Part shown: positions 1 to 14,873 of the stretch, piece by piece
Position numbering within the stretch: position 1 is the stretch's first letter
Layout: each line of letters begins with the position of its first letter
NCBI GenBank assembly: GCA_001782805.1
Contig: MFPT01000021.1
Span: 10,546-74,545, forward strand
Direction: 5' to 3'
From: Candidatus Magasanikbacteria bacterium RIFCSPHIGHO2_01_FULL_41_23
GTDB lineage: Bacteria > Patescibacteriota > Patescibacteriia > Magasanikbacterales > UBA922
DNA length: 64,000 nucleotides
Program-made: the position numbers and the translations under genes
Notes under the pieces: generated by a model
What the model saw: the letters and a program-made list of their open reading frames with translations, nothing else
Databases searched by the model: none
What the model was told of the DNA's origin: nothing

Positions 1-32
1 GGGTAGAATTTTACCAGTTAAACTATCGGCCC
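1..32 (-). tRNA. Partial tRNA gene (5' acceptor strand, D-arm and start of anticodon stem); the rest lies beyond the window start
   Basis: Reverse complement reads GGGCCGA-TA-GTTT-AACTGGTA-AAAT-T-CTACC-C, a tRNA 5' half. Anticodon-stem 5' strand CTACC and C32 are identical to the tRNA at 36090-36166. The flank at 33-110 is ~80% identical to the flank of that tRNA (36167-36250). Confidence 0.3.
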
Positions 33-192
33 ATAATCCACCATCTATAACCATAACACAAACAACCTTAAGAAAGTCTTAAATTTTAAAAGTTATTCAC
101 AAATTATCCCCAATATTTTGAAACATTTATAAAGAGCTGTTTTTTGTCTTCATCTGTGTTATAATAATTTCATAAAGAATTTACTGATTTAC

Positions 193-3100
193 ATGAACTC
201 GCATCTCCGCTCCATGCTCGGACGACTGCAGTTATTGGCACAGAAAATTTGTCCCGCGTCGGGATCATCTTGGCGCACTCCGTGGATGGTATTTTTTGGT
301 ATATTGTTTTTGGGATTTTTTCTTTTAACCATTTCTCCGGCCAATGCTCAGTTCGAAACTGTAACCAATATTTTTATTATCGGCGCGGCGCATATTATGA
401 TTGTCGTCGCCAATATTGCCATTGGTTTAACTATTTTCTTTTTGCGTTTTTTCATCATGCTGGCCAGTTACAACAATTATATTGATGTTGACGTGGTGCA
501 ATTGGGCTGGATAATGGTGCGGGATGTGGCCAATATGTTTTTTGTCGTCGCGCTGTTGGTCATAGCCTTTGGCACTATTTTGGGTTTGGAAGAATATGAA
601 TGGAAAAAGAATTTGGTTAAACTTATTCTCGCCGCGATTTTAATTAATTTCAGCAATTTGATTTGCCAGCTGCTTATAGATGTTTCCCATGTTTTTAGCA
701 TTACTTTTTTGAATGCCATTTCGGCTACGGCCGGAGGCAATCTGATTAACATGTTCAAATTGGATCAAATAACGGCTTTGGCCGGTGCGGATGATACATC
801 GGGGATTGATATTGAATTGTTGGCCGCGGCTATACCGGCCATGATGTTCGCGCTTATGGCCGCGGCCGCGCTGGGATCATACGTGTATGTTATGGCGGCG
901 CGAGTGGTGGCATTGTGGGCTTTGATTATTTTTTCCCCGCTCGCTTTTATTTTTGGCGTTTTGCCCAAGACCAAAGGATATGCGGAAAAATGGTGGACTG
1001 AATTTAACAATAACATAATTGTCGTGCCGATAATGGTGTTTTTTTTGTGGCTGTCGTTTGCCACGTTGGGTTTGGGTAATATTGCGGAACAAATTCAAAC
1101 TGGTTTGCCCGCGGGTGTCCAGATAGATGGAGCGCAACAAGGTAAAACTGAATATAAGAAGACATCGTTATCATTATCCAAAGTAACCAGTTGGGAAAAT
1201 ATGGCCAGTTTTTTGGTTGCTTTTGCGTTTTTGATGCGCGGCATTCAAGAAACCGAACAAACCGGAGTTACTGGAGCCGGAGCCATCGGCTCGGCCGTGG
1301 ATTTTGCCAAAAAAGTCGGTACCATTGCCAGTGGGTATGCGGCGGGGAGATGGTTGGCGGGGAAGACGAGGGATGGAGTAGTTGGTGGATCCAAATGGGT
1401 GGGCAAAGAACTTGGTGTACATCTGGCCAAACGGGCCGGAGTTTACGATGTTCCCGAGCGAGTCGGTAATTGGTGGAAAGCCAGAGGCGTGGCATTTGAT
1501 AAACGAAGAAGCGAAGGTCCGCTTAGTGGTGTTGTCGATTCAAAAGAAGTAGGAGAAGGTGATCAAACTAAAGATGAAACGAAAAAATTGACCGATGAAC
1601 AAGTTAAGGCTGGTTGGTCAATGAGGTTTGATAGAGAAAAAAATAAAACTGTTGCCGAACAATGGGGTGTATTGAAAGATAAGGATGGAAATCCCAAATA
1701 CAAAAGTGGTTATCAAAAATTTCTCTCTCGTCGTCACGAAAAAATAATCGCTTCTCGCAAGACTTTGGAAAAAACCGAAGGAGAATTTAAAGATAATGAA
1801 GAATTAATGGGGAAGCGTACTGAGGCTCAGTCGTTTGTTACCGGTGCAGAAAGGAGAGAGAATAGAAAATTAGAAAAAGAAGGTTTTGTTGTCAAAGACT
1901 ATGATCGTGTCAAGCGTGGTATGCTTGAAATTGAAGAAGAACGGGCATCAGCAAAAACAGCCGAGTTTAAGAATAGAGGTAAAATGATTGCTCTTGGTAG
2001 CCAACGTCTAAAGGCAGAAGGAGGAAAACCTCTTGGTTTTCAAGAAGGCGGGACAGTTGCCGAGCAAATTGCGGGTCACAAAACCCGAGCGGAATTCTTT
2101 GAATCACGAGTTAACCAAATTCTCAAAACCGCAGAAAGTAAATATAAAGGCAGTGCAGCCGGTAAACGATTTTTGGAAGGAAAAATTCAAGCCGATTTGG
2201 AAATAAAGGCTCAAGAAGCAAAGACTAAAGAATTACAAGCAGGCGCCACGACGAGAATAGCTTTGACCGATACCACTGATGTTTTAGCGCGTACAATAGA
2301 GGCGGAAAAAGCCGCGCATTTAGAAGAACAAAGATTGGCAAGAGTCCAAAAAGCCGAAGAAAGAGAATTTTACAAAGGCGATCATGGCCAAGAAGAATTG
2401 CGTGAAGAAGCGGTTTTGAAAGAACAAATCGCGGCCAGTGAAGCGGGAATAAAAAAAGAAGAGGCTGAAGCCAAACGCGAAGTTGCTGAAGGTACAGGCA
2501 GTGGAGACGAAGCGAAAGAGCGAGAACACCTCTTTAAAGTAGCTCAAGACGAGAAAATCGCGGCGACAAAACAAGCAGGTGTTCGGGAATCTTTAGCGAC
2601 CAGTGTTGAAAAAAAGGCTGAATTGGTCTATGAGACATCAGACCCAGGTAAAGAAGAAAAAGAAAAAGAATTAACTGCCAAAGAAACCATTGCCGCCACC
2701 GAAGGAAAAATAAAGAAAGAAGAGGCTACTAGAAAAGCCGTACTTGCCACAGAAGACAGTAATGAATACAAGTTACAAATGGCGGAGAGGATTGCGGCGG
2801 AAAAAGGCGCAAAGTTGGAAGAGGGGAAGGTCGCGCTTGCAGAAAAAGAGGCCACCAAAGCGTATGTTTCTGGTACAGGTGCAGATACAATTACCCAAAC
2901 CAAAGAAGTTGAATTAAAAACAAAAGCCGAAGACGCGGAAATTAAACAACGTGAAGCCGAGGCAGACAGACAAGCGGCCAATAATTTAAAAGAAGTGTTT
3001 GCTAGAATCAATTTTTCGGAACAAGCAACAAAAGCGGCTGAAGATTTTGTAAAAAATATTAAAGAAGAAGACCTGAGAGATAAATTTAAATCAGCTTCTG

Positions 3101-5001
3101 AGCAAATGAAGGGATGGATGAAATTAGACGCCACGGCTTTGGCCACGGAAATTGAAAAATTTAAGACTGCCGGTCATACTCAAGGAATTGACGCGTATGT
3201 AGTGGCGTTGGGTCAAGCTCAATTGTTAAAAGTAACTACGAGTGATTCCGGTATTCGCCATAAACAAGCCGAGGATGCGGCGTCTGACGGTTTTGTGAAT
3301 AAATCTCGGTATGGAACCACTACTGCCTCAACTGCCTATTCTGATTTTTCCGATACCAAATTAAAGGATTATAAAAAACTGGAACGCACCGCCGCCATGA
3401 AAAAAGCCACCGATGTCCATGCTTTTTTAATGCACCAAAAAGAAAATTTGCCAGCGGGTCAAGAACTTGATCTTGATCAAACAGCGGAATTATATGCTGC
3501 CAGTTCTTATTTACAATCAGAAGCATGGAATGATGATCAGGCGGCGTATACATACTCTATGTTTGAAAAATTACAAAGACATCAAGCCGAAGTAGCGAAT
3601 AAAGGAAGTTCAACTGTCATGAAAACTGATGAAGCAGCACAGTGGACCACTATGGCGAAACAATATACTAGGTTGGGCTGGCTTGATAACAATGTTATTG
3701 ATGCTGGTGGTAATTTTGTATTGGATAATGAGAAAAAAGCAGATGGTACTGATGTCATTGATAAAACAAATGGAAAAGTAGTCAAAAAGGGGAAAGCCAT
3801 TGCCAAAAAATATACACGACAAAAAGCCGCGGATATGCAGAATTTAGCTGTTACAGGCGGTGATGTAAATTTAGTGGTTGCCCATCACCAAATTTCTGAA
3901 GCGGTTGATGCCAATGCTCGGGATGTTGAAAATGCTAAGCTTGAAGCAAGAAGTAGGATTATTGCGGATAAGAAAAGTGCTAATACAACATTAACAGACG
4001 AAACGGCCGCTGCATCGGCGGAAAAAGAAATTGAATCCGCAATGGCAGCTGCGGGTAAAGCTACAGCAAAAAATTATTGGGAATTGGCGGATGTTATTTT
4101 GAAATTAGGAACTAACACAACAGGCATCGTCGATGCTGCTGCTTTGAAAGTACGTTATGAAGAACATTCTGATTTGCTTCAAGACGCCACCAAATCATAC
4201 AAAGGTTTTGCACATGCCACCGGCCATGAAAAATTAGGTGGAAACCAAGGATTTGATGAAGAGGCTGATTCCTATCGTTTTATGACGGTAAGAGAGGGTC
4301 AGGCAGAAGTTCGGGCTGATCGGGTAAAAATGAAAACTCGCCAAATCTTAAATGGAGATCAGTATCATAGTAATGGTGGTGAATTAGATTTGGATACAGG
4401 GATAATTGATAATTTCTTGGAAGACACGCTTAATCTTACTATTGGTAAAATTACCCGATACCTTGATATGGTTGATATGCCTGAACGTTCTTTGAAAGGC
4501 GCGTTCTATTTACATAAAAATGAACAAGCAAAAGTAGTGCAAGGTACGGAAGGTGCTTTAAAAGATAAAAAAGTTGCGGTGTTGGGTGGAAATAAAGCCA
4601 TGCAAAAATTTGAAGCCGATGGTGATGTTGATGAAGAAAGTAAGACAAAGCATATGATGACACGTGGTGTTGTACCGGCTTTAATGTCAGGTCATAGAGG
4701 TTGGGCAGTCGCAGCCAGTAAATTATATGGCGGTCATGTTGTGGAGGCCGACGCTCAAAAAGGGACAATAAATATGCGGGTCGGTAATAAAGAATTTGCA
4801 ACTACGAAGAATGCGGCTGAACATGTTATTACTAATTTGGAATCAGATAAAGATTACTTTAAGGGTAGCGATCTTTATGGTCAAGAAAAAAGAATATTAG
4901 AGGCCATGAATCAGATTATCGCGGATTTTAATTCTGCACCTGCACCTGCATCTGCTGTTGATACTGCTGCTGCTGGTGAAGATGATACTCCTCCTACTTA
5001 A
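193..5001 (+). CDS. Giant polytopic membrane protein: N-terminal TrbL/VirB6-like multi-TM domain (~400 aa) plus a ~1200-aa K/E/A-rich low-complexity or coiled-coil C-terminal extension
   Basis: Uninterrupted 1602-codon ORF. The first ~330 aa carry 6-7 hydrophobic helices in a VirB6/TrbL-like layout. The rest is strongly biased to K, E, A, T and Q with EAK/KEE-type periodicity. It lies in one cluster with the PrgI-like and VirB4-like genes. Confidence 0.55.
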   Translation: MNSHLRSMLGRLQLLAQKICPASGSSWRTPWMVFFGILFLGFFLLTISPANAQFETVTNIFIIGAAHIMIVVANIAIGLTIFFLRFFIMLASYNNYIDVDVVQLGWIMVRDVANMFFVVALLVIAFGTILGLEEYEWKKNLVKLILAAILINFSNLICQLLIDVSHVFSITFLNAISATAGGNLINMFKLDQITALAGADDTSGIDIELLAAAIPAMMFALMAAAALGSYVYVMAARVVALWALIIFSPLAFIFGVLPKTKGYAEKWWTEFNNNIIVVPIMVFFLWLSFATLGLGNIAEQIQTGLPAGVQIDGAQQGKTEYKKTSLSLSKVTSWENMASFLVAFAFLMRGIQETEQTGVTGAGAIGSAVDFAKKVGTIASGYAAGRWLAGKTRDGVVGGSKWVGKELGVHLAKRAGVYDVPERVGNWWKARGVAFDKRRSEGPLSGVVDSKEVGEGDQTKDETKKLTDEQVKAGWSMRFDREKNKTVAEQWGVLKDKDGNPKYKSGYQKFLSRRHEKIIASRKTLEKTEGEFKDNEELMGKRTEAQSFVTGAERRENRKLEKEGFVVKDYDRVKRGMLEIEEERASAKTAEFKNRGKMIALGSQRLKAEGGKPLGFQEGGTVAEQIAGHKTRAEFFESRVNQILKTAESKYKGSAAGKRFLEGKIQADLEIKAQEAKTKELQAGATTRIALTDTTDVLARTIEAEKAAHLEEQRLARVQKAEEREFYKGDHGQEELREEAVLKEQIAASEAGIKKEEAEAKREVAEGTGSGDEAKEREHLFKVAQDEKIAATKQAGVRESLATSVEKKAELVYETSDPGKEEKEKELTAKETIAATEGKIKKEEATRKAVLATEDSNEYKLQMAERIAAEKGAKLEEGKVALAEKEATKAYVSGTGADTITQTKEVELKTKAEDAEIKQREAEADRQAANNLKEVFARINFSEQATKAAEDFVKNIKEEDLRDKFKSASEQMKGWMKLDATALATEIEKFKTAGHTQGIDAYVVALGQAQLLKVTTSDSGIRHKQAEDAASDGFVNKSRYGTTTASTAYSDFSDTKLKDYKKLERTAAMKKATDVHAFLMHQKENLPAGQELDLDQTAELYAASSYLQSEAWNDDQAAYTYSMFEKLQRHQAEVANKGSSTVMKTDEAAQWTTMAKQYTRLGWLDNNVIDAGGNFVLDNEKKADGTDVIDKTNGKVVKKGKAIAKKYTRQKAADMQNLAVTGGDVNLVVAHHQISEAVDANARDVENAKLEARSRIIADKKSANTTLTDETAAASAEKEIESAMAAAGKATAKNYWELADVILKLGTNTTGIVDAAALKVRYEEHSDLLQDATKSYKGFAHATGHEKLGGNQGFDEEADSYRFMTVREGQAEVRADRVKMKTRQILNGDQYHSNGGELDLDTGIIDNFLEDTLNLTIGKITRYLDMVDMPERSLKGAFYLHKNEQAKVVQGTEGALKDKKVAVLGGNKAMQKFEADGDVDEESKTKHMMTRGVVPALMSGHRGWAVAASKLYGGHVVEADAQKGTINMRVGNKEFATTKNAAEHVITNLESDKDYFKGSDLYGQEKRILEAMNQIIADFNSAPAPASAVDTAAAGEDDTPPT

Positions 5002-5022
5002 CAAATAATCTAGACTAATTTT

Positions 5023-6276
5023 ATGGATACTACACCATTAAAGAATCTGATTGATTGGTATAAAAAATATTCTCTAAGACAGGGAGAGACTTTTATATTG
5101 GAATTTTTTGAAAAATCAAAAAATAAGTCTGACTCTCCAGTGAATAATTTAGAAAAAATTATTCGTAGTCTGGTTGAATTTGTCACTGAATCAAAAAAAA
5201 ATCCGGAAGAATTCTTTTTATTTCCAAATGACAAAATCATTATTAGTAGTCTTGCGACCGTTGACAAAGATTATATCCATTCTGTTGTGCCAGTTATGTG
5301 GTATGGTCTTGGTTTGCAAACCGGAGATTATGATTTGTGGGAACCGGAACAGATTATCAAAGAATGTGAAGAGGTTTTTTCCGGCGCGGTTGATAATGTT
5401 CCGGTTCTTATACGCAACATCCGCGAAGTCGGAAAGAACGAGGATGCTATAAATTTTTGCCAGAAATTTATTAACCAGTTTATTCTGCTTGATAAATGCA
5501 CAATAATCACAGAATTAAATTGGCATAATTCTTTGATAATAGCGATTGCGCTTAATACGGTATATGAACGACTATATCAGCTTTCCGAAGACGAGCAAAA
5601 AATTATTCTTCAACACAGTCTTTATGTCGCTTTGTGCGCGGGCATCAATGTGCAAACGAGTCTGCAGGCTGTCTTGTATCACACCAAAACTATTTTTAGT
5701 TTTATTGCCACGTATGAACGACTGACACAGATTTTAGAAGAAAGTAATGAAACGGTGATTCAAATTAATGAAAATTCTATTCAAACTCTGGGGAGTTTGT
5801 GGAATGATTATTGTGAAAAAAATAAAAATGATTGGTCGGATATAAAAAAATTAAAATTTTTTTCTGACAGTCTGACAACCAATGAATTTCAGAAAGAAAA
5901 AATATTTGCAGGTTTTAAGATACTCCTTGATCTTAAGACAGCGGTTTTGCAACAAAAAAATTACAGTGATGATTATAATGAATCCGAAGAGTTTCGCAAT
6001 GATGTCATTAAATTAATTTTTTGGTTTGGAATCGGTGACGCCGGTTACGATGATCTAAAAAAATATTTTCAACAGACAGAAAAAAAAGTTTCTATTACTG
6101 CTTTTGTAAAAAGGCTAGTTGAAATTATTGGTCTACAAGATATGGAACAAATTGAAAATGTACTTCTTTTTTCTGGATTACTTCGCGAATTAAACTGGAT
6201 GCCGGAAGATGACAACTTAATCAGTTTCCACGAATCCACCTCCCAATTCCATTGGAATCAAGAATTATTATCCTAA
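5023..6276 (+). CDS. Hypothetical protein, paralog of the next gene
   Basis: 417-aa ORF. Segment EQKIILQHSLYVALCAGINVQTSLQAVLY aligns with EQQFILQHYFYYAIIMGVPVQSWLNVAF of the downstream ORF. A second shared block is WFGIGDAGYDD vs WYGNDAQGNQY. No recognisable family. Confidence 0.6.
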   Translation: MDTTPLKNLIDWYKKYSLRQGETFILEFFEKSKNKSDSPVNNLEKIIRSLVEFVTESKKNPEEFFLFPNDKIIISSLATVDKDYIHSVVPVMWYGLGLQTGDYDLWEPEQIIKECEEVFSGAVDNVPVLIRNIREVGKNEDAINFCQKFINQFILLDKCTIITELNWHNSLIIAIALNTVYERLYQLSEDEQKIILQHSLYVALCAGINVQTSLQAVLYHTKTIFSFIATYERLTQILEESNETVIQINENSIQTLGSLWNDYCEKNKNDWSDIKKLKFFSDSLTTNEFQKEKIFAGFKILLDLKTAVLQQKNYSDDYNESEEFRNDVIKLIFWFGIGDAGYDDLKKYFQQTEKKVSITAFVKRLVEIIGLQDMEQIENVLLFSGLLRELNWMPEDDNLISFHESTSQFHWNQELLS

Positions 6277-6277
6277 T

Positions 6278-7222
6278 ATGCCCGCTCCATTATTTTCCTA
6301 TTGCCAAAATAATCCGCTCAAAAATGTCTCTGCTTTGGAGCGGCTTATTATGGCAGTTGAGCCTAGTGCGATTACGGATACCGCGCTTAGTGGTGTCGTG
6401 GAATACGCGGCTTTGATTCTTTCCGGTTTGCGCGATTTGGAACCGCGCGGATTGGCCGACAGTTATGTTACGCAAGTTTTGGGATTTATTGACACAAAAC
6501 TTGTGGAGCAAGTGGCGACTGATCCAGCCAAATCCGCGAGTAATGATCTCAATGAATTGGCAGTGGAATTGCTCCACTCTGCGGCCGCGATTGGCGTGGT
6601 GGAAGAAATTACGCCGTATACGGTTGAAGAATTGACCGAGATTATCAACAGTTCTGACGTTGATTTTAATCATGCTATTTTGGCCTTCACTATTGGCTAC
6701 GCGATTGTGAGTGGAGAAAAAGATTATGGATCTCTATTAATGCACATTCTCATGAATCATAAAGATGAAGAATTGCAAACGCCATACGAATGGATGGATG
6801 CGTTTTTGCTCGGTTTATTAATTCATAGTGCGTGGAGTTATTTTCCCGATGCCACGGATCGTGAACAGCAATTCATACTCCAACATTATTTTTATTATGC
6901 CATTATCATGGGCGTGCCGGTACAAAGTTGGTTGAATGTGGCGTTTGCTGCCAATCCCAAATTATTGCCGCATATATTGATGCAAAAATTAAGCAGTTCG
7001 CAAGAAGTGATTCCGGAGAATTCCGGATTAAGCAGTAGTGCGGATTTTGCCAATGTCATACGCGATTATATGTCTGCAGTCAATCAAAATTCCATTCCCA
7101 CTTTGGCCGCGGAAAAATTTTTGGGCAAATGGTATGGCAATGACGCGCAGGGAAATCAATATCGTCTATGGTTGCGCGCCGCGCTTGGTACTGCCTATCG
7201 TTTGCAAACGCGGAATTTGTAA
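6278..7222 (+). CDS. Hypothetical protein, tandem paralog of 5023..6276
   Basis: 314-aa ORF starting 2 nt after the previous stop. Shares a ~60-aa conserved core with the upstream gene. Confidence 0.6.
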   Translation: MPAPLFSYCQNNPLKNVSALERLIMAVEPSAITDTALSGVVEYAALILSGLRDLEPRGLADSYVTQVLGFIDTKLVEQVATDPAKSASNDLNELAVELLHSAAAIGVVEEITPYTVEELTEIINSSDVDFNHAILAFTIGYAIVSGEKDYGSLLMHILMNHKDEELQTPYEWMDAFLLGLLIHSAWSYFPDATDREQQFILQHYFYYAIIMGVPVQSWLNVAFAANPKLLPHILMQKLSSSQEVIPENSGLSSSADFANVIRDYMSAVNQNSIPTLAAEKFLGKWYGNDAQGNQYRLWLRAALGTAYRLQTRNL

Positions 7223-7273
7223 TGCGATTTTTTTGTGATATACTTCAATTAATTTAATTTTAAAAGGAGGGAT

Positions 7274-7777
7274 ATGAATTACAATCAAAATAATTTTGCT
7301 TTTATTGACAGCCAAAATTTACATTTTGGAATTTTGGAACAAGGTTGGAAGATTGATTATCGAAAATTTCGTAATTATTTAAGGAATAAATACGATATTA
7401 CAAAAGTTTTTATGTTTATGGGGTATTTACCCTCAGAACAAGCTTTATATACATTTCTTAGACAATCAGGGTTTACGTTAATCTTCAAACATGTGTCTAA
7501 GTTACTTGACGGTTCGGTAAAAGGTAATTGCGACGGTGAGATGATTTTACAAGCTATGATAGAGTATCCGAATTATCACCAAGCTTTGCTCATTACAGGG
7601 GATGGGGATTTTGTATGTTTGATAAAATATTTACAAAAACAGAATAAATTGTTGCAAGTAATTGCTCCAACATTAGAAAATTGTTCTAAATTTATTCGTG
7701 AAGTTGCCGGTAAAAAATTATTGTTTTTTAACGATTTACAATCAAAATTGTCATATAAAGACAAAAAGACCCTATAA
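7274..7777 (+). CDS. NYN-domain (LabA-like / DUF88) putative RNase
   Basis: Motifs FIDSQNL near the N-terminus, GNCDGEMI and ITGDGDF match the PIN-like NYN domain acidic residues. AGGAGG RBS 6 nt upstream of the ATG. Confidence 0.65.
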   Translation: MNYNQNNFAFIDSQNLHFGILEQGWKIDYRKFRNYLRNKYDITKVFMFMGYLPSEQALYTFLRQSGFTLIFKHVSKLLDGSVKGNCDGEMILQAMIEYPNYHQALLITGDGDFVCLIKYLQKQNKLLQVIAPTLENCSKFIREVAGKKLLFFNDLQSKLSYKDKKTL

Positions 7778-7887
7778 AGACAAAACAGTATAGGGGCATT
7801 CTTGCTGGGAAGGACCATACAAAGACAAAACAGTGTACAGGATATTCCCTCATGATTACTTTCTAAAGTATACAACACTACAAATAG

Positions 7888-8922
7888 TTGTCAAGCCAAG
7901 TTATGCCCAATCAACCCACAATTCTCGTAAAAAAATCCGACGGAACGACAATCCGGATGACTCTTGACGAAGTCAAAAAAATGAAGGCGGAGAAAAAAGC
8001 AGATAATCCTTTGTTGCCACAAGAATTAGAGACAGCACCAGAAACAGTGATCAAAAAAGCTGTGGAAATGTTAAAAACTCCGGAATTGGAACCGGCACCA
8101 GTGGAATTTTTATTAAAAGCCAGCGCCGAGCCACATCTTTTGCATGAAGAAATAGAATCGCACGAAGTTACCAGACCGGAATTAGTGACCGCGGTTTCGT
8201 ACGATCGCACGGTTGACGCCGTGCTTAAAAATGCTCGCTTAACTCCGAGTCCGGAACTAATGCCGCGATTTCAGTCACTCATTATGTCGCTTATAAAAGG
8301 CGTGCGTACTGTGGCGCAAGTAATGGAATACGCGAGCGCGCCGCTTCTGCGCGGAGGTTTGGCACTTTCGATCGCCGAGGCAGAACGTCTTGCCACGGCT
8401 TTGAACACACAAACCGGTTTGCCCAATAACCGATCGATTATTATTCCCAAACCCATGACTGCGCCTGCCTCCACGCCCTCAAACATTCAGGGATCAGTCA
8501 AAAATAATCCAACTTCAAATCGTCCTCACAACACAGGCGCGGCTTTTGTCCAAATGCATGATGTGCAAGCGCCGCAGTCCGCGCCAAGCACAAGCAATAA
8601 AGCAGTCATGGGTCCTATAGAAGAAATGAAAATTTTTTCTCTCCTTGATTGGCGTCGTCTCGCGGCTACGCCGGATAAAGCCAAAGAAATAATTTTAAGT
8701 AAATTTTCCGGCTGGAAAGATGAATCATTTTTTTTGTATCGTGATACCAGATTGGCCTGGTTGGAATCGCCATTGGTGCGCGAATATCAAGAAAAAGTTA
8801 TCACTGCCATCAATCAAAGTACGCGTTTGTCTGATATGGCTTCCGGATTTGCGGTGAAAAAAACCCTGACACCGGCTGACATTGCCGCGCTCGTTGAAGT
8901 GAATAGGGTACTTGCGGTATAA
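7888..8922 (+). CDS. Hypothetical Pro/Ser/Ala-rich protein
   Basis: 344-aa ORF in the same orientation inside the T4SS-like cluster. No recognisable motifs. Confidence 0.5.
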   Translation: MSSQVMPNQPTILVKKSDGTTIRMTLDEVKKMKAEKKADNPLLPQELETAPETVIKKAVEMLKTPELEPAPVEFLLKASAEPHLLHEEIESHEVTRPELVTAVSYDRTVDAVLKNARLTPSPELMPRFQSLIMSLIKGVRTVAQVMEYASAPLLRGGLALSIAEAERLATALNTQTGLPNNRSIIIPKPMTAPASTPSNIQGSVKNNPTSNRPHNTGAAFVQMHDVQAPQSAPSTSNKAVMGPIEEMKIFSLLDWRRLAATPDKAKEIILSKFSGWKDESFFLYRDTRLAWLESPLVREYQEKVITAINQSTRLSDMASGFAVKKTLTPADIAALVEVNRVLAV

Positions 8923-8956
8923 TACTCCTACGGCCATGTAATCAAATTTTTACCGC

Positions 8957-9385
8957 ATGCAACAATTTGTTGTTCCACAATTTATTGAAGTGGAAGATAA
9001 AATTTTCGGGCCGATTACGACTCGGCAATTTTTAATTTTATTGGCCGCGGGCACAGCCATATTTTTGTCGTATCGGTTTGGCGATTTGGCTTTATTTATT
9101 TTTACGGTTGTTTTTGTCGGCGGTTTTTCCGCGATTTTGGCTTTTGTAAAAGTGAATGGTCAAAATTTTCATTATTTTTTGCTGAATATTATACAAACCA
9201 TGCGCAAACCATCATTGCGCATTTGGCAAAAAAGTTACAATAAAGAAGAACTGAATTATTTGCGCAAGCGCGATGCCGATATTAAAATAGAGCCGCTCAT
9301 CGTGGTCACAGCAGTAAAAAAAGATCGGATTCGCGACTTGGCTCTGTTGGTTAATACGGGCGGTTTTTACAAGCCCGAGGAATAG
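8957..9385 (+). CDS. PrgI-family (VirB3-like) small membrane protein of Gram-positive-type conjugation / T4SS systems
   Basis: The N-terminus VPQFIEVEDKIFGPITTRQFLILLAAG matches the PrgI-family signature (VPK..ee.KIFG.T.RQ followed by two TM helices). It lies immediately upstream of the VirB4-like ATPase, as PrgI lies upstream of PrgJ. Confidence 0.65.
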   Translation: MQQFVVPQFIEVEDKIFGPITTRQFLILLAAGTAIFLSYRFGDLALFIFTVVFVGGFSAILAFVKVNGQNFHYFLLNIIQTMRKPSLRIWQKSYNKEELNYLRKRDADIKIEPLIVVTAVKKDRIRDLALLVNTGGFYKPEE

Positions 9386-9403
9386 CGCGCGTTCACCATA
9401 AAT

Positions 9404-10093
9404 ATGTCTGACGAAAAAATGAGAAAAAAAACCAAAAAACGGCCTTCATCACAGGCTCATTTGCCCATCGCGGAAATCAAAGACAGCGTGGTGATTTTAA
9501 AAGACGGCACATTGCGCGCGGTTATTTTGGTTTCCAGTTTGAATTTTGCTCTAAAATCCGAAGATGAACAAAATGCGATTATTTCCGCGTACGTTGGTTT
9601 TCTTAATTCACTGGATTTTCCAATTCAAATTGTAGTCCAATCGCGCAAATTGCAAATCAAACCCTATTTGGAAAAATTGCAGGGGATTGAACGGACACAA
9701 ACCAATGAATTGTTGCGCATCCAAACCGCGGATTATCGCGCGTTTGTGGAAGAGTTGGTGGAGATCGGGCAGATTATGACCAAACGTTATTATGTCATTG
9801 TGCCCTATGATCCGCTGAATAATCGGCGCAAGAATTTTTGGGCACGATTTAAAGAAGCGCTTAAACCGGGAATTACCATTCGTTTGCGTGAAGAGCGATT
9901 TCAGACACGCAAAAGTGAAATTGATTTGCGTTTGCGTCACATTATTGGCGGACTGTCCGGCATGGGACTCACCACAGTTCAGCTGGATACGCAATCTTTG
10001 ATTGAATTATATTATTCCACTTACAATCCGGATATCGCTTTTGCCGAAACATTGGGCACGATTGGCGATCTCCAAATTGAAGATATTTCATAA
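9404..10093 (+). CDS. VirB4/TraC-type ATPase, N-terminal domain (separate ORF; frame differs from the ATPase domain ORF)
   Basis: IKDSVVILKDGTLRAVILVSSLNF resembles the conserved N-terminal 'IxDGiixtkdGslxrvievepin' region of VirB4/TrbE/PrgJ. The stop at 10093 is followed 2 nt later by the ATG of the ATPase-domain ORF in another frame. Confidence 0.55.
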   Translation: MSDEKMRKKTKKRPSSQAHLPIAEIKDSVVILKDGTLRAVILVSSLNFALKSEDEQNAIISAYVGFLNSLDFPIQIVVQSRKLQIKPYLEKLQGIERTQTNELLRIQTADYRAFVEELVEIGQIMTKRYYVIVPYDPLNNRRKNFWARFKEALKPGITIRLREERFQTRKSEIDLRLRHIIGGLSGMGLTTVQLDTQSLIELYYSTYNPDIAFAETLGTIGDLQIEDIS

Positions 10094-10095
10094 GT

Positions 10096-11955
10096 ATGCC
10101 ATTTAAACCCATTGCCACCAATAAAAAAGGAATCAGTTCGGCAGCGCCGGACATTGAGAAAAAAAAACTGCAAAAAGAATTGATTACTTTGGAAGAAGAA
10201 CGGGTGTATCGCGAAGGCACGGTGGCCATTCGCGATTTGGTCGCGCCGTCCGCACTATCGGTTCAGTCCAATTTTGTGCAATTGGGCACGACTTTTTTGC
10301 GTACGATTTTTGTGATTACGTATCCGCGTTATATGTCAGTCGGCTGGAGTTCGCCGATTTTAAATTTAAATTTGACCATGGATTTGGCTATGTTTTTTTA
10401 TCCGGTCAATTCGGAAATTATTTTAAAACAGCTCAAGAAAAAAGTTGGCGCGCTGGAAGCGCAATTGTCCGGTGACGCGGAAAAAGGCGCGGCGCGTGAT
10501 CCGTTGCGCGAAACTGCTTTGCGCGATATTGAACAACTGCGCGATGATTTAACGCAAGGCGTGGAACATTTTTTTCAATTTGCTTTTTACGTTACGCTTT
10601 ACAGCCAAGACAAAAAAGAATTGGATAAAGTTACGGAAGACATTCAGAATATTTTTGGTTCCAAATTAATTTACAGCAAAAATGTTTTGTATCAGGCCGA
10701 ACAAGGTTTTACTTCAACGTTGCCGCTGGGGATTGATGAGTTGACGATTTCTTTTAACATGAATTCCTCGCCGATCGCGGCCTCGTTTCCGTTTATTTCC
10801 TCGGAATTAAGCAGTGATGATGGAATTTTGTATGGCATCAATCGCCATAATAACAGTTTAATTTTGTTTGATCGTTTTTCTTTGCAAAATGCCAATATGG
10901 TGGTTTTTGCCACTTCCGGAGCGGGAAAATCTTATGCTATTAAATTGGAAGTTTTGCGTAGTTTAATGATGGGAACTGACGTGATTGTGATTGATCCGGA
11001 AATGGAATATGAGCATTTGGCCGAGGCGGTTGGCGGAACTTATATCAGTATTTCTTTGGCTTCGGAAAGCAAAGTCAATCCGTTTGATTTGCCGCGTCCG
11101 GTTGGTCAGCAAATTTCCACCGAAGATATTATTCGCAGCGCAGTAATTACGATGAAAGGTTTGTTGCGGATTATGTTTGGCACACTGACGCCGCAGGAAG
11201 ATTCAATTTTGGATCGCGCGCTTTTGGAAACGTACGCGAAAAAAGACATTACAGCTACAGTTGATCTGACCACAGTCGAGCCGCCGATTATGCAGGATTT
11301 GCTGGATATTTTGGAAGGCATGACGGGCGCGGAAGTATTGGTTTTAAAATTGCGCAAATATACCGAAGGCACGTTTGCCGGATTATTCAATTCTCCGACC
11401 AATGTGAATGTGACCAATCAATTGGTTATTTTTAGCGTGCGTGATTTGGAAGATGAATTGCGGCCAATGGCGATTTATACGTTGGTGAATTATATTTGGA
11501 ATTTAGTTCGTTCCGAACAAAAACGGAGAATTTTGATTATTGATGAAGCGTGGTGGCTTATGAGTCACGAGGATTCGGCCAAATTCATTTACGCGCTCGT
11601 GAAGCGTTGTCGCAAATATTATTTGGGTGTGACGACCATTACCCAGGATGTGAATGATTTTTTACGTTCGCCATACGGACAGGCGATTGTAACCAATTCG
11701 GCTTTGCAACTTTTGCTCCGTCAATCACCCGCGGCCGTGGATATGATTCAACGCGTGTTTATGTTGACCGAAGGAGAAAAATATTTGCTTTTGGAAGGCG
11801 CGGTCGGTGAAGGCATATTTTTTGCCGGCAATAAACACGCGGCCATCAAAGTCGTGGCGTCTTATACCGAAGATCAACTCATCACGTCTGATCCCAAACA
11901 ATTATTGGAAATTGAAAAAGCCAAAAAAGAATTTGAAGAACAAATGGGAAAATAA
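10096..11955 (+). CDS. virB4: VirB4/TrbE/PrgJ-like T4SS ATPase, central and C-terminal ATPase domains
   Basis: Walker A VVFATSGAGKSYAIK and Walker B ILIIDEAWWLM. The architecture resembles VirB4/CagE/TraC. Together with the upstream ORF it gives ~848 aa, a typical VirB4 length. Confidence 0.75.
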   Translation: MPFKPIATNKKGISSAAPDIEKKKLQKELITLEEERVYREGTVAIRDLVAPSALSVQSNFVQLGTTFLRTIFVITYPRYMSVGWSSPILNLNLTMDLAMFFYPVNSEIILKQLKKKVGALEAQLSGDAEKGAARDPLRETALRDIEQLRDDLTQGVEHFFQFAFYVTLYSQDKKELDKVTEDIQNIFGSKLIYSKNVLYQAEQGFTSTLPLGIDELTISFNMNSSPIAASFPFISSELSSDDGILYGINRHNNSLILFDRFSLQNANMVVFATSGAGKSYAIKLEVLRSLMMGTDVIVIDPEMEYEHLAEAVGGTYISISLASESKVNPFDLPRPVGQQISTEDIIRSAVITMKGLLRIMFGTLTPQEDSILDRALLETYAKKDITATVDLTTVEPPIMQDLLDILEGMTGAEVLVLKLRKYTEGTFAGLFNSPTNVNVTNQLVIFSVRDLEDELRPMAIYTLVNYIWNLVRSEQKRRILIIDEAWWLMSHEDSAKFIYALVKRCRKYYLGVTTITQDVNDFLRSPYGQAIVTNSALQLLLRQSPAAVDMIQRVFMLTEGEKYLLLEGAVGEGIFFAGNKHAAIKVVASYTEDQLITSDPKQLLEIEKAKKEFEEQMGK

Positions 11956-11956
11956 T

Positions 11957-12150
11957 CCAATGCAACACCAAAACATCCACTATACCAATAAGCAAAATGG
12001 AGACGAATATACTTTTGCTGAAAGCTGAGTATATTGACTTGTTGAGAATGCATAATCCGTCAGACTATCAGTTGAACAAAAGGATATCGTTGAATTTTGC
12101 TTAAGACTTAGAATAAATAAAGTTTGATTAAGACTTAGAAAATGGAGTTT
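11957..12150 (+). repeat. Copy 1 of a ~200-nt dispersed intergenic repeat (second copy at 35643..35900)
   Basis: Near-identical blocks: AATGCAACACC..AATAAGCAAA.TGGAG.., GAAAGCTGAGTATA.TGACTTGTT.AGAATGCATAATCCGT.AGACTATCAGTTGAACAAAAGGATATCGT.GAATTTTG.TTAAGACTTAGAA..AATGGAGTTTG. There is an internal direct repeat TTAAGACTTAGAA. Confidence 0.7.
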
Positions 12151-12177
12151 GATTACGAGGGAATAAGATGCTATACT
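12149..12177 (+). promoter_or_regulatory. Putative sigma70-type promoter (TTGATT-17-TATACT) with the -10 only 8 nt from the ATG of the next gene (leaderless-like)
   Basis: Hexamers read directly from the sequence. Spacing 17 nt. ATG at 12186. Confidence 0.3.
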
Positions 12178-12185
12178 AAATACAT

Positions 12186-12788
12186 ATGATGACTCTCCGC
12201 AAACGCATTTTTATCATTAACATTATCGTTACGGCCATAATTTTGGCAATTTTTTTGTATTTGGTATATGGTCGCGAATCTGACACTAGTATAATAACTT
12301 CTGACAGCGAATCCGAAACATCGCCTACAGCGCCAAAAACCATTACCAATCAAGATAAAACCAACATAACAAAACCAGCCATCGCCAAACCGATTTTAGC
12401 TTTGCCGGCGTATTCCGAAGAATTATACGTCCGTCAACTAGCCAAAATTTTTGTGGAACGTTTTGCCAGTTATTCCACGCAAAATGATAATAATAATATC
12501 ACTGATTCACTTGATTTGGCGACAGTTAGTATGCAAACTTGGATGAAAACACAGCTAAAGCCGGGAAGTCGAGATTATGAAGGCGTGGTAACTCAAGTTC
12601 TGGCTTCTTCGGTTAAAGAAAAAACCGCTTCCAGCGCCACTGTTGACTTGCAAATTCAACAAAATTTTGAACAAAAAACCGCCACAGCCGTTGGCGCTAC
12701 GCAAAAAGAAATGCGTCAAAAAAAAGGAACGGTTAAATTGCTTAAAATTGGCGATCAATGGAAAATTGATGGTCTGTATTGGGAATAA
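12186..12788 (+). CDS. Hypothetical membrane-anchored protein (N-terminal TM helix; possible NTF2-like / VirB8-like periplasmic domain)
   Basis: 200-aa ORF. The N-terminus RKRIFIINIIVTAIILAIFLYLVY is a single TM helix. The remainder is soluble and ends in a beta-rich region. Size and topology resemble VirB8-type proteins, but there is no sequence-level proof. Confidence 0.45.
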   Translation: MMTLRKRIFIINIIVTAIILAIFLYLVYGRESDTSIITSDSESETSPTAPKTITNQDKTNITKPAIAKPILALPAYSEELYVRQLAKIFVERFASYSTQNDNNNITDSLDLATVSMQTWMKTQLKPGSRDYEGVVTQVLASSVKEKTASSATVDLQIQQNFEQKTATAVGATQKEMRQKKGTVKLLKIGDQWKIDGLYWE

Positions 12789-12804
12789 TAGTATGAAGGA
12801 GGGG

Positions 12805-13467
12805 ATGAAAAAACTAACTGATTTTTTACTGGATTGCGTATTTCCTTATTTTTGTTTACAATGCGGCGCATCTGATGTTTATTTTTGCTTTCTTTGTCGA
12901 CAAGCCGATTGGTTTAAAAATCCGACGGGAATTTTTGTGCATGGCAACGAGATTGATTCTTCCTTAACTCGAATCATCAGTTTGACTAAATATAATTCGG
13001 AAGTTGACGCGGCACGACTGATTGAGGATTTTAAATATGGTTTTATAAATCAGGCCAGTACGGAAATTAACGTCTGGCTAAAAAATACCGCGTGGTTAAA
13101 TAAAGAAATCGCAGATTGTGATTTAATAATTCCCGTGCCACTGCATCGCCGTCGTTTTGCCGAACGAGGATTTAATCAAGCGGAAATTATTGCCGGTTTT
13201 ATGAGTACGATTATACATCGTCCGATTGATTTTTTGTCTTTAATTCGTGCTAAATCAACCAAACAACAAGCCAAACTGGGTCGCGAAAAACGACTGAAGA
13301 ATGTGATTGACGCCTTTGTCTGCAAAAATAAAGAAAAAATTGTCGGCCAAAATATTTTGTTGGTTGACGATGTGTACACCACCGGCGCTACATTGGAGGA
13401 ATGCGCTAAAGTTTTATTGGCGACGGGCGCGAAAAATGTTTCCAGTTTTACTTTGGCTCACGGCTAA
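12805..13467 (+). CDS. comFC: ComF-family protein (ComFC-like phosphoribosyltransferase, competence-associated)
   Basis: N-terminal Cys-rich zinc-finger-like region (CLQCG..CFLCRQ). PRTase motif ILLVDDVYTTGATL near the C-terminus. GGAGG RBS 5 nt upstream of the ATG at 12805. The ORF track extends the frame upstream to 12643, which overlaps the previous gene. Confidence 0.7.
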   Translation: MKKLTDFLLDCVFPYFCLQCGASDVYFCFLCRQADWFKNPTGIFVHGNEIDSSLTRIISLTKYNSEVDAARLIEDFKYGFINQASTEINVWLKNTAWLNKEIADCDLIIPVPLHRRRFAERGFNQAEIIAGFMSTIIHRPIDFLSLIRAKSTKQQAKLGREKRLKNVIDAFVCKNKEKIVGQNILLVDDVYTTGATLEECAKVLLATGAKNVSSFTLAHG

Positions 13468-13485
13468 TAATTCCAGAAATAATAT

Positions 13486-14244
13486 TTAATTATATTGTGC
13501 CTCAACACTGCAATGTTTGCCATTGCCGATTATCACATGATCGATCAAATGAATTCCCATTATTTTGCCGGCGGCAATCAGTTGTTCGGTTATTTCTATA
13601 TCAGCCGCGCTGGGAGTAACAATTCCCGATGGATGATTGTGTACCAAAATTACAGCCGCGGCTCCGTATTCCACGGCTGGTTTAAATACTTCGCGCGGAT
13701 GGATCAAATTGGCATTGATTGTGCCAATCGATAAAACTTCATCATGAATTACGCGATAATGAGAATTTAAATAAATGCCGCGCAGATGTTCTTTGGGCAA
13801 GCGTTCCATATCGCGCGCATAATTAAATACATCTTTGGCTGTGCGCACCATTGTCAATCCGCTTTTATTTTTTTGGAAAAAGCGTCGACCAAGTTCACCA
13901 CATGCTACGATCTGCGCGGCTTTGTGAATGGGAATTTCCAAGTCTGTTGCCAGCGTGGCCGGATTGGTTTGGGCGGACAATGCTCGCTCGCCATATTCCT
14001 TGACTACGCGCGCTGACATCGCCAATACATCTTCTTTTGTAGAGCCGGTGTTAATAATTACTGCCAAAAGTTCTTGTACGGTCAAATTGCTTGGACCATA
14101 TTTGAGCAATTTTTCGCGCGGTTTGTCTTCGCTGGGCATGTCTTTGATGCGCAAAAAATACGTACGACCACTGGACAAAGCATCGGCTTCCAGCAAAATC
14201 AAACCGGTTTCGGGAATTGTATACGTATTCGTTTGAATATTCAT
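13486..14244 (-). CDS. radC: RadC-family (JAB/MPN domain) DNA repair protein
   Basis: HhH-type N-terminal region. JAMM-like motif VHNHPSG. C-terminus AADIEITEQL. Typical UPF0758/RadC architecture. Confidence 0.8.
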   Translation of the reverse strand: MNIQTNTYTIPETGLILLEADALSSGRTYFLRIKDMPSEDKPREKLLKYGPSNLTVQELLAVIINTGSTKEDVLAMSARVVKEYGERALSAQTNPATLATDLEIPIHKAAQIVACGELGRRFFQKNKSGLTMVRTAKDVFNYARDMERLPKEHLRGIYLNSHYRVIHDEVLSIGTINANLIHPREVFKPAVEYGAAAVILVHNHPSGIVTPSAADIEITEQLIAAGKIMGIHLIDHVIIGNGKHCSVEAQYN

Positions 14245-14378
14245 AAGGAAAAATTAAACATTACCAATGTAATCCTCAGTATCATATCACGAAAAAAAAT
14301 CTCCAGCAATGTGGTTTACCCTGAGCTTGTCGAAGGGAATTGTCCACATTTTTGGGGATAAATATCATTTTTCCATTA

Positions 14379-14408
14379 TTGACAAGAGTGATTTTTAATT
14401 ATAAAATA
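14379..14408 (+). promoter_or_regulatory. Putative sigma70-type promoter TTGACA-17-TAAAAT upstream of the 14417 ORF, in a divergent intergenic region with radC
   Basis: Perfect -35 TTGACA at 14379, 17-nt spacer, TAAAAT -10. ATG at 14417. Confidence 0.4.
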
Positions 14409-14416
14409 AAAATACT

Positions 14417-14722
14417 ATGAAACAAATTTGGGATAAATTAAAAGAACATGACAAGCGATTTGACCAGATTGATGGTCAAATTGATTTTTTGGCCATTAAA
14501 GTGTTGGAACATGACGATAGGTTGCAAAGAATTGAAGAAAATATGGCAACCAAAGCCGATTTGCGGACAATTTCCGATACTCTTGATAAATTAGTCGGAT
14601 TAGCCCTCAAAAAAGATCAGGAAGTAACTTTTTTGACCCATAGTGTAAAAGGGTTATGGAATAAATTTGAAGAGTATGATCTAGATATAAAGCAAATGAA
14701 ATTATTGTTAGAATTAGGTTAA
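14417..14722 (+). CDS. Hypothetical small coiled-coil protein
   Basis: 101-aa ORF with heptad-like charged/hydrophobic periodicity. No known motif. Confidence 0.4.
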   Translation: MKQIWDKLKEHDKRFDQIDGQIDFLAIKVLEHDDRLQRIEENMATKADLRTISDTLDKLVGLALKKDQEVTFLTHSVKGLWNKFEEYDLDIKQMKLLLELG

Positions 14723-14783
14723 GAGAAATAAAAAAATAATAGGTTAAATAAATTAACACCTTGGATGGTGTTAATTTTATGGC

Positions 14784-14873
14784 TGGCGGAGAGGGAGGGA
14801 TTCGAACCCTCGAGGGATTTGACTCCCTGCAGCTTTAGCAAAGCTGTACGATCGGCCACTCTGACACCTCTCC
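14784..14873 (-). tRNA. tRNA-Ser (anticodon GCU), class II long variable arm, CCA encoded
   Basis: The reverse complement folds as GGAGAGG..T-arm GGTTCGAATCC..CCTCTCC-G-CCA. Anticodon loop UUGCUAA. Long variable arm and G73 discriminator. Confidence 0.8.

What the first reader, a model, noticed from the sequence alone, without database searches (positions are those of the whole stretch)
193..5001. 1602-aa membrane protein: VirB6-like N-terminus fused to a ~1200-aa K/E/A-rich low-complexity tail
The first ~330 residues are a multi-pass membrane domain. Everything after is hydrophilic, strongly charged and repetitive in composition (EAK, KEE, AAEK) with no Cys and few aromatics. This looks like an extended coiled-coil or fibrillar surface/periplasm-spanning stalk. 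Canonical VirB6/TrbL proteins have far shorter hydrophilic tails.
Basis: seen in the sequence. Interest (0 to 1): 0.6.

Follow-up and report, generated by a model that had tools for sequence, protein, structure and literature searches.

The report
Giant VirB6 subunit of CPR T4SS
This 1602-residue gene is real and encodes the VirB6 channel subunit of the chromosomal type IV secretion system of a Magasanikbacteria (CPR) bacterium; its long tail is not low-complexity filler but a charged spacer followed by a folded, lineage-specific ~650-residue domain with no match among solved structures, probably displayed outside the cell.

Summary
The ORF 193..5001 (1602 aa) is real. The identical protein was read on 23 contigs, including separate ENA and NCBI assemblies, and all 67 related reading frames with an in-locus stop are at least 950 codons. 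The organism is a Candidatus Magasanikbacteria (CPR) MAG.

A family-wide signal-peptidase site, the R388 VirB6 architecture and near-total cysteine exclusion (0.011%, against 0.10-0.24% in cytoplasmic operon partners) suggest an extracytoplasmic tail. Topology and function remain inferred.

It is a new variant of the known "extended-VirB6" kind within the already described Patescibacteria T4SS.

The parts
193..5001 (+). Whole gene: extended VirB6-like T4SS subunit, 1602 aa (stop codon 4999-5001)
   Evidence: ORF listed. The 100% identical protein P0001 comes from Candidatus Magasanikbacteria RIFCSPHIGHO2_01_F.... The same gene appears in separate assemblies.
193..348 (+). aa 1-52: basic N-region, ~20-residue hydrophobic core and P-A-N-A|Q site; predicted cleavable Sec signal peptide (or N-in anchor)
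   Evidence: Ala at -1 is invariant in 40/40 family members, position -3 is A/V/T/S/I in 40/40, and Pro is at -4 in 22/40; family-average 7.3 K/R before the hydrophobic core.
349..1260 (+). aa 53-356: VirB6/TrbL-fold helical membrane domain, the most conserved part of the protein
1261..1500 (+). aa 357-436: conserved G/W/K/R-rich juxtamembrane segment (motif GKKVATIASGYAAGRWL)
   Evidence: Consensus. Family-average 13.6 K/R against 6.2 D/E over aa 351-436. AF2 confidence is low beyond aa ~397.
1501..2292 (+). aa 437-700: charged region conserved in about half of the family (motif DRxxxGxLExExxRSxAKTxE)
   Evidence: BLAST coverage of 61-67 of 119 homologs over aa 451-650, falling to 38 by aa 651-700. 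Consensus. Windows are 29-52% charged.
2293..2979 (+). aa 701-929: K/E/A-rich, poorly conserved linker of variable length; the only markedly biased stretch
   Evidence: aa 700-960 are A 16.9%, K 13.4%, E 20.3%. Only 7-8 of 119 homologs align at aa 751-850. The C-module starts at very different positions in homologs, from aa 578 to aa 1384. PDB profile hits here are compositional only (TolA domain II, bias above score).
2980..4947 (+). aa 930-1585: folded C-terminal module with two sub-modules (about 934-1130 and about 1270-1580); lineage-specific, no neighbour among solved structures. The first ~100 residues (aa 930-1030) are modelled with low to moderate confidence.
4948..4998 (+). aa 1586-1602: A/P/D-rich, probably disordered C-terminal end
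   Evidence: pLDDT 35-37 in the last two blocks. Not conserved.
5023..7222 (+). Two soluble proteins of unknown function (417 and 314 aa), variably present next to the VirB6 gene
   Evidence: No Pfam, NCBIfam or PHROG hit. No TM segment. Found in 11 and 18 of the related loci.
7888..8922 (+). g344: conserved soluble protein always placed between the VirB6 gene and prgI; unknown function
   Evidence: No family hit. Present in 61 related loci at the same position.
8957..9385 (+). PrgI (VirB3-like), 142 aa, 2 TM
   Evidence: Pfam PF12666, E 2.5e-10. TM segments. Syntenic in 58 loci.
9404..10093 (+). TrsD-like protein (resembles the VirB4 N-terminal domain), 229 aa; not a split VirB4
   Evidence: NCBIfam NF041427 TrsD/TraD at E 5.2e-5, plus matches to VirB4 N-terminal regions, all below the curated cut-offs. 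Precomputed PF26593 TraC-like. TrsD is a described component of the Patescibacteria T4SS (PMC12102498). Syntenic in 57 loci.
10096..11955 (+). VirB4-type ATPase, 619 aa
   Evidence: Pfam PF19044 at E 2.3e-29 and PF12846 at E 1.1e-10. Syntenic in 55 loci.
12186..12788 (+). g200: bitopic protein with an N-terminal TM anchor; VirB8 candidate by position
   Evidence: TM at aa 8-26. Same position, size and topology as the NTF2/VirB8 gene of the pLS20 family operon (PMC8557374). Cys 0.029% in 36 orthologs. No direct family hit, so this assignment is an inference.

Best explanation
The gene encodes the VirB6 subunit of the chromosomal, relaxase-less type IV secretion system that Patescibacteria (CPR) carry, in an 'extended-VirB6' form typical of Magasanikbacteria. 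Shown: it has a VirB6-fold N-terminal domain; it heads a conserved operon VirB6ext-(g417/g314)-g344-PrgI/VirB3-TrsD-VirB4-g200; and its tail is modular, ending in a confidently folded ~650-aa lineage-specific domain. Inferred: the N-terminal signal peptide is cleaved, leaving the mature N-terminus outside. The VirB6 domain assembles, probably as a pentamer as in R388 and Dot/Icm, into the membrane-proximal dome or channel above the PrgI/VirB4 motor. The C-terminal extension then emerges on the extracytoplasmic side. There the charged, variable-length helical or disordered spacer (about aa 437-929) carries the Cys-free globular module through the wall towards the cell surface. At the surface the module most plausibly forms the distal part of the conduit or contacts the partner (host) cell, a role taken in diderm systems by VirB5 and the pilus, and in the F plasmid by the periplasmic C-domain of TraG.
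Against: No direct topology predictor or experiment was available. The weakly hydrophobic, conserved helix at aa 337-350 could be a seventh membrane span, which would put the tail in the cytoplasm. The 86 residues that follow are K/R-rich (13.6 K/R against 6.2 D/E), which the positive-inside rule reads as cytoplasmic. From my own knowledge (not checked here), reporter fusions placed the C-terminus of Agrobacterium VirB6 in the cytoplasm. The cysteine argument is weakened in three ways: the whole T4SS operon is Cys-poor, a DsbA-like gene is present in the window, and at least one envelope-type protein of the window (VanW/PG_binding_4, 6 Cys) is not Cys-free. The query itself has no Pfam hit. 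The N-terminal model is of only moderate confidence (pLDDT 73). Nothing indicates what the C-terminal module binds or does. Pentamer formation was not modelled.
Confidence: 0.6

Rival explanations
1. It is the same VirB6 subunit, but the tail is cytoplasmic. In this reading it acts as a docking or recruiting platform at the base of the machine for VirB4, TrsD, g344, g417 and g314 or for substrates, and so substitutes for the missing coupling protein (T4CP).
For: No T4CP or relaxase is present in the window or, according to PMC12102498 and PMC10633639, in most Patescibacteria T4SS clusters. The juxtamembrane segment is K/R-rich. A possible seventh span lies at aa 337-350. Several soluble proteins of unknown function are encoded next to the gene. 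From my own knowledge, the Agrobacterium VirB6 C-terminus was mapped to the cytoplasm.
Against: Tail cysteine is 9-22 times lower than in the cytoplasmic partners from the same operons and matches the bitopic g200. The family has a signal peptide followed by an even number of strong hydrophobic helices. In the R388 structure everything after alpha2 is periplasmic. The C-module shows no P-loop or other NTPase signature in Pfam, NCBIfam or PDB searches.
Confidence: 0.27
2. One reading: the ~1200-aa tail is one continuous low-complexity coiled-coil or fibrillar stalk.
For: Residues 700-960 are A/K/E-rich. The family profile matches TolA domain II, a long periplasm-spanning helix, at E 1.9e-6. The AF2 model of aa 930-1030 is helical but of low to moderate confidence.
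Against: The TolA match is compositional, with bias 56 against a score of 29. No repeats were found. Hydrophobic heptad power is at noise level and hydrophobic content is only 14-26% in the charged windows between about aa 431 and 982. Only 21% of tail windows are K/E/A-rich. Residues 930-1585 form a globular alpha/beta domain with pLDDT 85.
Confidence: 0.08
3. The long ORF is an artefact: a frameshift or misassembly has fused a VirB6 gene to one or more downstream genes.
For: Its size is unusual for VirB6, and the query has no direct Pfam hit.
Against: The identical protein was read on 23 contigs from separate assemblies. Homologs are collinear over 94-98% of the query. All 67 related reading frames with an in-locus stop are 950-2164 codons. 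The C-module is found almost only at the C-termini of such long proteins; the few short hits look like contig-end fragments.
Confidence: 0.01

Closest known systems
VirB6/TrbL family (Pfam PF04610), e.g. TrwI of plasmid R388 (PDB 7O3V) and DotA of Legionella Dot/Icm
   Different: The query itself falls below Pfam detection. It carries a family-wide cleavable-type signal peptide. It is about 5 times longer than canonical VirB6 (~300 aa). No VirB5 or VirB2 gene was recognised in the window.
Extended-VirB6 proteins of monoderm conjugation systems (pLS20 gene 49, 690-1135 aa; MPF_FA VirB6 homologs of 700-900 aa) and F-plasmid TraG (a VirB6 homolog per PMC12624023; its periplasmic C-domain and its role in mating-pair stabilisation and entry exclusion are from my own knowledge)
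   Same: The architecture matches: a polytopic VirB6 N-domain followed by a large hydrophilic C-proximal region (PMC12857230). The operon order VirB6ext, small 2-TM protein, soluble ~200-aa protein, VirB4, N-anchored ~200-aa protein is collinear with pLS20. The proposed role of the C-domain outside the membrane mirrors F TraG.
   Different: No sequence similarity to any plasmid-encoded protein (tblastn against 72,556 plasmids found nothing). The system is chromosomal and lacks a relaxase and T4CP. It is larger (family 950-2164 aa). The review describes the extra regions of MPF_FA homologs as unstructured, whereas here the C-module is confidently folded and has no PDB neighbour.
Patescibacteria (CPR) T4SS described by Wang et al. 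2023 (PMC10633639) and Quinonero-Coronel et al. 2025 (PMC12102498)
   Same: The component set is the same: VirB4, TrsD, PrgI/VirB3 and VirB6. The location is chromosomal, there is no relaxase, and comF, recG and radA lie nearby as reported for class ABY1.
   Different: The passages of those papers read here do not mention VirB6 size, a C-terminal module or its topology. No VirB2-like pilin array was seen in this cluster, unlike Southlakia (pilins elsewhere in the genome are not excluded).
TolA domain II (long K/E/A-rich periplasm-spanning helix)
   Same: The composition of aa ~570-910 is similar, and the family profile matches TolA at E 1.9e-6. The proposed spacer role across the envelope is also similar.
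   Different: The match is compositional only, with bias exceeding the score. There is no homology to TolA domains I or III and no Tol-Pal context.

Membership tests
VirB6/TrbL (PF04610) | Direct match of the protein to the Pfam TrbL (or TrbL_3, PF19590) profile at the gathering score | tested here: not met
   hmmscan of the 1602-aa query against Pfam-A gives 0 families at E <= 1.
VirB6/TrbL (PF04610) | Homology to profile-positive members (transitive) | tested here: met
   P0022, P0035 and P0117 are 41-47% identical to the query N-domain at E < 1e-107. They score 27.6, 27.9 and 26.1 bits against a cut-off of 25.9, over residues ~110-315. Six of 22 homologs hit at E <= 0.01.
VirB6/TrbL (PF04610) | VirB6 three-dimensional fold | tested here: met
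   [not shown]
VirB6/TrbL (PF04610) | Five or more hydrophobic helices in the N-terminal part | tested here: met
   Kyte-Doolittle segments lie at 32-50, 60-78, 112-130, 144-162, 209-227, 238-256 and 275-293. They are conserved in the family-averaged profile.
VirB6/TrbL (PF04610) | Encoded with virB3- and virB4-type genes | tested here: met
   PrgI, TrsD and VirB4 lie 4-5 kb downstream. The same order holds in 55-58 related loci.
VirB6/TrbL (PF04610) | Pentameric assembly at the base of the channel | not testable with these tools
   No multimer prediction was available. This is inferred from R388 and Dot/Icm (PMC9259494, PMC12857230).
Extended-VirB6 subclass | VirB6 domain plus one or more large central or C-proximal hydrophilic domains | tested here: met
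   About 1250 hydrophilic residues follow the VirB6 domain. The definition is quoted from PMC12857230.
Patescibacteria MPF_FATA-related T4SS | VirB4, TrsD, PrgI/VirB3 and VirB6 clustered on the chromosome | tested here: met
   Housekeeping genes flank the cluster.
Patescibacteria MPF_FATA-related T4SS | No relaxase or coupling protein in the cluster | tested here: met
   Pfam scans of the ORFs of at least 120 aa that are not overlapped by a larger gene found no relaxase or T4CP domain. The rest of the genome was not examined.
Patescibacteria MPF_FATA-related T4SS | VirB2-like pilin genes in the cluster (as in Southlakia) | tested here: not met
   Among small ORFs (45-160 aa) with hydrophobic segments in window positions 1-16,000, only PrgI is credible; the others overlap real genes in other frames. 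This was a crude screen, and pilins may lie elsewhere.
   Fourier power at period 3.5 is 0.0-0.6, about noise level, in 42-aa windows across aa 341-1012. This was a crude test; no COILS or DeepCoil was available.
   No tandem or internal repeats. The compositional bias is confined to about aa 664-930 and about 1240-1320. Residues 930-1585 are globular.
TolA | Sequence homology beyond composition | tested here: not met
   The hit to TolA domain II has bias 56.3 against a score of 29.4 and is restricted to the K/E/A-rich stretch.

The most novel reading that the evidence does not exclude
The five tails of a VirB6 pentamer form a built-in extracellular stalk and tip. The charged spacers act as a length-adjustable shaft through the wall and S-layer. 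The fold-novel C-terminal modules assemble into a distal cap that recognises or breaches the host cell. In this epibiotic CPR lineage that would replace the VirB2 pilus and VirB5 tip, and the divergence and swapping of the C-module would track host specificity.
Probability: 0.2. Interest if true: 0.75.

Novelty: new variant of a known kind. Interest (0 to 1): 0.45.

Why it matters
The T4SS is one of the few machines shown to be essential for the epibiotic life of a cultivated Patescibacterium (PMC10633639). What it transports, and how it reaches the host, are unknown. The role of the extra domains in extended-VirB6 proteins is also stated to be unknown (PMC12857230).

This family adds a concrete handle. 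It has a large, confidently folded, Cys-free C-terminal module that is restricted to the lineage and has no relative among solved structures. The module sits on a variable-length spacer attached to the channel subunit. If it is surface-exposed, it is a prime candidate for the part of the machine that touches the host, and for a host-range determinant. That makes it a defined target for structural work and for localisation experiments.

If the tail is instead cytoplasmic, it is a candidate substitute for the missing coupling protein. Either outcome would inform how relaxase-less CPR T4SSs work.

Tried and rejected
(1) Direct family scans of the query found nothing. Pfam gave none. NCBIfam gave only a spurious 14-bit antiporter hit. 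PHROGs gave only a spurious holin hit.

(2) A sequence search of the query against PDB gave no hit. A profile of the full-length alignment A1 hit only K/E/A-rich proteins (TolA, CFAP46, TAF3 and others) with bias above score; I rejected these as compositional.

(3) A link to the second giant ORF of the window (57546-62366) was rejected. BLASTP shows no similarity, and it is DnaE with an intein.

(4) A 'split VirB4' (9404-10093 plus 10096-11955, in different frames) was considered and rejected. The first ORF is better explained as TrsD, a known separate component.

(6) The afdb50 fold library was not available.

(7) A profile search of the 5.8-billion-protein database with A3 returned no hit at all, not even the family itself. 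This is probably a word-prefilter failure and is uninformative.

(8) tblastn against 72,556 plasmids gave no match.

(9) Promoter and terminator scans were not clearly different from shuffles.

(10) A positive-inside analysis gave conflicting signals and could not settle the topology.

Full report
**1. The observation**

The ORF 193..5001 (+) is real and uninterrupted, at 1602 codons. The public annotation of the identical protein starts 7 codons later, giving 1595 aa. That protein (P0001) is labelled 'hypothetical protein A2821_02260, Candidatus Magasanikbacteria bacterium RIFCSPHIGHO2_01_F...'.

Exactly this protein was read on 23 contigs. They include separately assembled ENA samples and NCBI GCA_001782895.1, contig MFPY01000010.1. 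On these contigs the gene follows housekeeping genes: RsmB-type methyltransferase, a class II aminoacyl-tRNA synthetase, RecO, RuvX and MetAP. Several homologs align over 94-98% of the query. In species-representative genomes, all 67 related reading frames with an in-locus stop, measured stop-to-stop, are 950-2164 codons, with a median of 1292. A frameshift or misassembly is therefore excluded.

**2. Composition**

Seven strongly hydrophobic 19-residue segments lie between aa 32 and 293. A weaker conserved one lies at 337-350.

The tail is hydrophilic and has no cysteine, where 11.1 would be expected from the 0.89% in 36 other ORFs of the window (P = 1.5e-5). It is not uniformly low-complexity:
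- Residues 700-960 are A 16.9%, K 13.4% and E 20.3%.
- Residues 960-1602 have ordinary composition.
- Only 21% of 60-aa tail windows reach K+E+A >= 45%.
- There are no DNA tandem repeats beyond two trivial hexamer runs, and no internal protein repeats in aa 431-1000.

**3. Architecture from conservation**

BLAST coverage over 119 homologs divides the protein as follows:

| Residues | Conservation |
|---|---|
| 50-400 | present in essentially all homologs |
| 400-700 | present in about half |
| 750-850 | present in almost none (variable linker) |
| 950-1550 | directly alignable in about a third |

By transitive links, 85 of 120 family members share a related C-terminal module, and three smaller alternative module groups exist. 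The C-module starts anywhere from residue 578 to 1384 in homologs, so the spacer length is highly variable.

**4. The N-terminal domain is VirB6**

The query itself has no Pfam hit. Three lines of evidence still support the assignment:
- Six of 22 homologs hit TrbL/VirB6 PF04610 at E <= 0.01, and three pass Pfam's gathering score.
- Downstream lie PrgI/VirB3 (PF12666), a TrsD-like protein and a VirB4 ATPase.

The order VirB6ext-(g417/g314)-g344-PrgI-TrsD-VirB4-g200 recurs in about 55-60 species-level genomes, nearly all labelled Magasanikbacteria. The core is collinear with the pLS20 conjugation operon of Bacillus: extended-VirB6 of 906 aa, a small 2-TM protein, a soluble ~190-aa protein, VirB4, then an N-anchored NTF2/VirB8 protein (PMC8557374). 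That makes g200 a VirB8 candidate by inference.

**5. Relation to what is published**

The Patescibacteria T4SS has been described (PMC12102498). It comprises VirB4, TrsD, PrgI/VirB3, VirB6 and VirB2-like pilins, is related to MPF_FATA, mostly lacks a relaxase, and in class ABY1 is often next to comF, recG and radA. It is essential in Ca. Southlakia epibionticum (PMC10633639).

This window fits that description. It carries ComF-like, RadC, DprA, RecG and RadA genes, and no relaxase or coupling protein was found among the ORFs scanned.

'Extended-VirB6' proteins are a recognised subclass whose extra domains have unknown roles (PMC12857230). The passages I read do not describe the size, tail architecture or C-terminal module of the Magasanikbacteria proteins. 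A literature search for 'Magasanikbacteria' with 'secretion' found nothing relevant.

**6. The C-terminal module**

AlphaFold2 on aa 930-1602 with 22 homologs gives a confident model (mean pLDDT 85.4, pTM 0.83). It is mixed alpha/beta, and only the first ~30 and last ~17 residues fall below pLDDT 50; the first ~100 residues are of low to moderate confidence.

No relative was found among solved structures:
- Foldseek against PDB gives a best probability of 0.20 and TM 0.09.
- A domain-only profile finds no PDB sequence even at E <= 10.

An exhaustive phmmer search of 1.84 billion cluster representatives finds only 57 proteins at E <= 0.001. Nearly all are 900-1900 aa long with the match at their C-terminal end. 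The matches fall into two sub-modules, at about aa 934-1130 and 1270-1580. Conserved polar motifs exist (EAWNDD, QNLAxTGGD, GHxxLGxNQxFD), but their function is unknown.

**7. Where is the tail?**

Three indirect lines point outside the cytoplasm.

- **Signal peptide.** The family has a textbook signal-peptidase I site: a basic N-region, about 20 hydrophobic residues, then P-[AVTS]-x-A|, with Ala invariant at -1 and a small or aliphatic residue at -3 in 40/40 sequences. The mature N-terminus is therefore outside.
- **Helix count.** Six strong hydrophobic helices follow the signal peptide, an even number. In the R388 structure only alpha1 and alpha2 of VirB6 cross the membrane, and the other predicted TM helices form the periplasmic dome (PMC9259494). 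Both counts place the C-terminus outside.
- **Cysteine exclusion.** There are 14 Cys in 123,143 tail residues of 119 homologs, and 106 tails have none. In 71 genomic loci the tails have 0.011% Cys. That compares with 0.029% in the bitopic g200, 0.10% in TrsD, 0.16% in g344, 0.24% in VirB4, 0.42% in the VirB6 N-domain, and 1.25% in a crude background of all long ORFs in those loci.

Four points argue against an outside location. The conserved helix at 337-350 might be a seventh span. The following 86 residues are K/R-rich. The operon as a whole is Cys-poor. A DsbA-like gene is present.

I put the probability of an outside tail at about 0.6-0.65.

**8. The charged spacer**

Between about aa 431 and 982, 42-aa windows are 29-52% charged and only 14-26% hydrophobic, with noise-level heptad periodicity. 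A canonical coiled coil is therefore unlikely. If about 490 residues were fully helical they would span up to about 70 nm, but this is an upper bound.

**9. Verdict**

The 'low-complexity coiled-coil tail' description is largely wrong.

The gene is the extended-VirB6 subunit of the known CPR T4SS. Its new feature is a lineage-restricted, confidently folded C-terminal module without a PDB relative, on a variable spacer and probably extracytoplasmic. This is a new variant of a known kind and is moderately interesting. The function of the module is unknown, and the mechanism proposed here (a distal conduit or host-contact element) is an inference.

Noticed in passing
window 57546-62366 (+): The second giant ORF (1606 aa) is DNA polymerase III alpha (DnaE). 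It is interrupted by an intein with a LAGLIDADG homing-endonuclease domain at about aa 772-1187. It is unrelated to the finding.
   Followed up: partly
window 9404-10093 and 10096-11955 (+): A 229-aa ORF resembling the VirB4 N-terminal domain lies 2 nt upstream of the 619-aa VirB4 ATPase, in a different frame. It looks like a split gene, but it matches the TrsD component described for Patescibacteria, and the pair is conserved as two ORFs in about 55 related loci.
   Followed up: yes
window 7274-7777 (+): An NYN-domain (predicted RNase) gene sits inside the T4SS cluster between g314 and g344. A homolog was detected in only one of the 80 related loci (L011, and at a different position), so it looks like a local insertion.
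   Followed up: partly
window 7888-8922 (+) and 12186-12788 (+): Two conserved cluster genes have no family assignment. g344 is soluble and always lies between the VirB6 gene and prgI, in 61 loci. g200 has an N-terminal TM anchor, is nearly Cys-free, always follows virB4, and is a VirB8 candidate by position and size.
   Followed up: partly
window 41990-43726 (-): A 578-aa Cys-free protein rich in D/E/K/Q/N/P, highly low-complexity, with a hydrophobic segment near the C-terminus and no Pfam hit. It accounts for the strong AT skew (-0.38) at 42-44 kb.
   Followed up: no
window 14784-15184 (-): Three tandem tRNA-Ser genes. ARAGORN assigns one of them (14930-15020) the unusual anticodon ACT.
   Followed up: no
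window 12643-14244, 20515-25273, 30902-32962, 36358-37797: Competence and recombination genes are concentrated around the T4SS cluster: ComF-like PRTase, RadC, topoisomerase I, DprA, RecG and RadA. This matches the ABY1-class pattern noted in PMC12102498 and recalls (from my own knowledge) DNA-uptake T4SSs such as Helicobacter ComB.
   Followed up: partly
window 40069-40725 (-): A DsbA-like thioredoxin-fold protein. It is relevant as a caveat to the cysteine-exclusion argument, because the organism may be able to oxidise exported cysteines.
   Followed up: no
window 62585-63250 (+): An AbiEii-type nucleotidyltransferase toxin (type IV toxin-antitoxin / abortive infection) lies at the window's right end.
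   Followed up: no
[not shown]
   Followed up: no
loci L005, L006, L009 and many others: Many GTDB representative MAGs that carry this Magasanikbacteria-type cluster have record titles reading 'uncultured Gammaproteobacteria bacterium'. This is almost certainly a mislabel in the submitted records.
   Followed up: no
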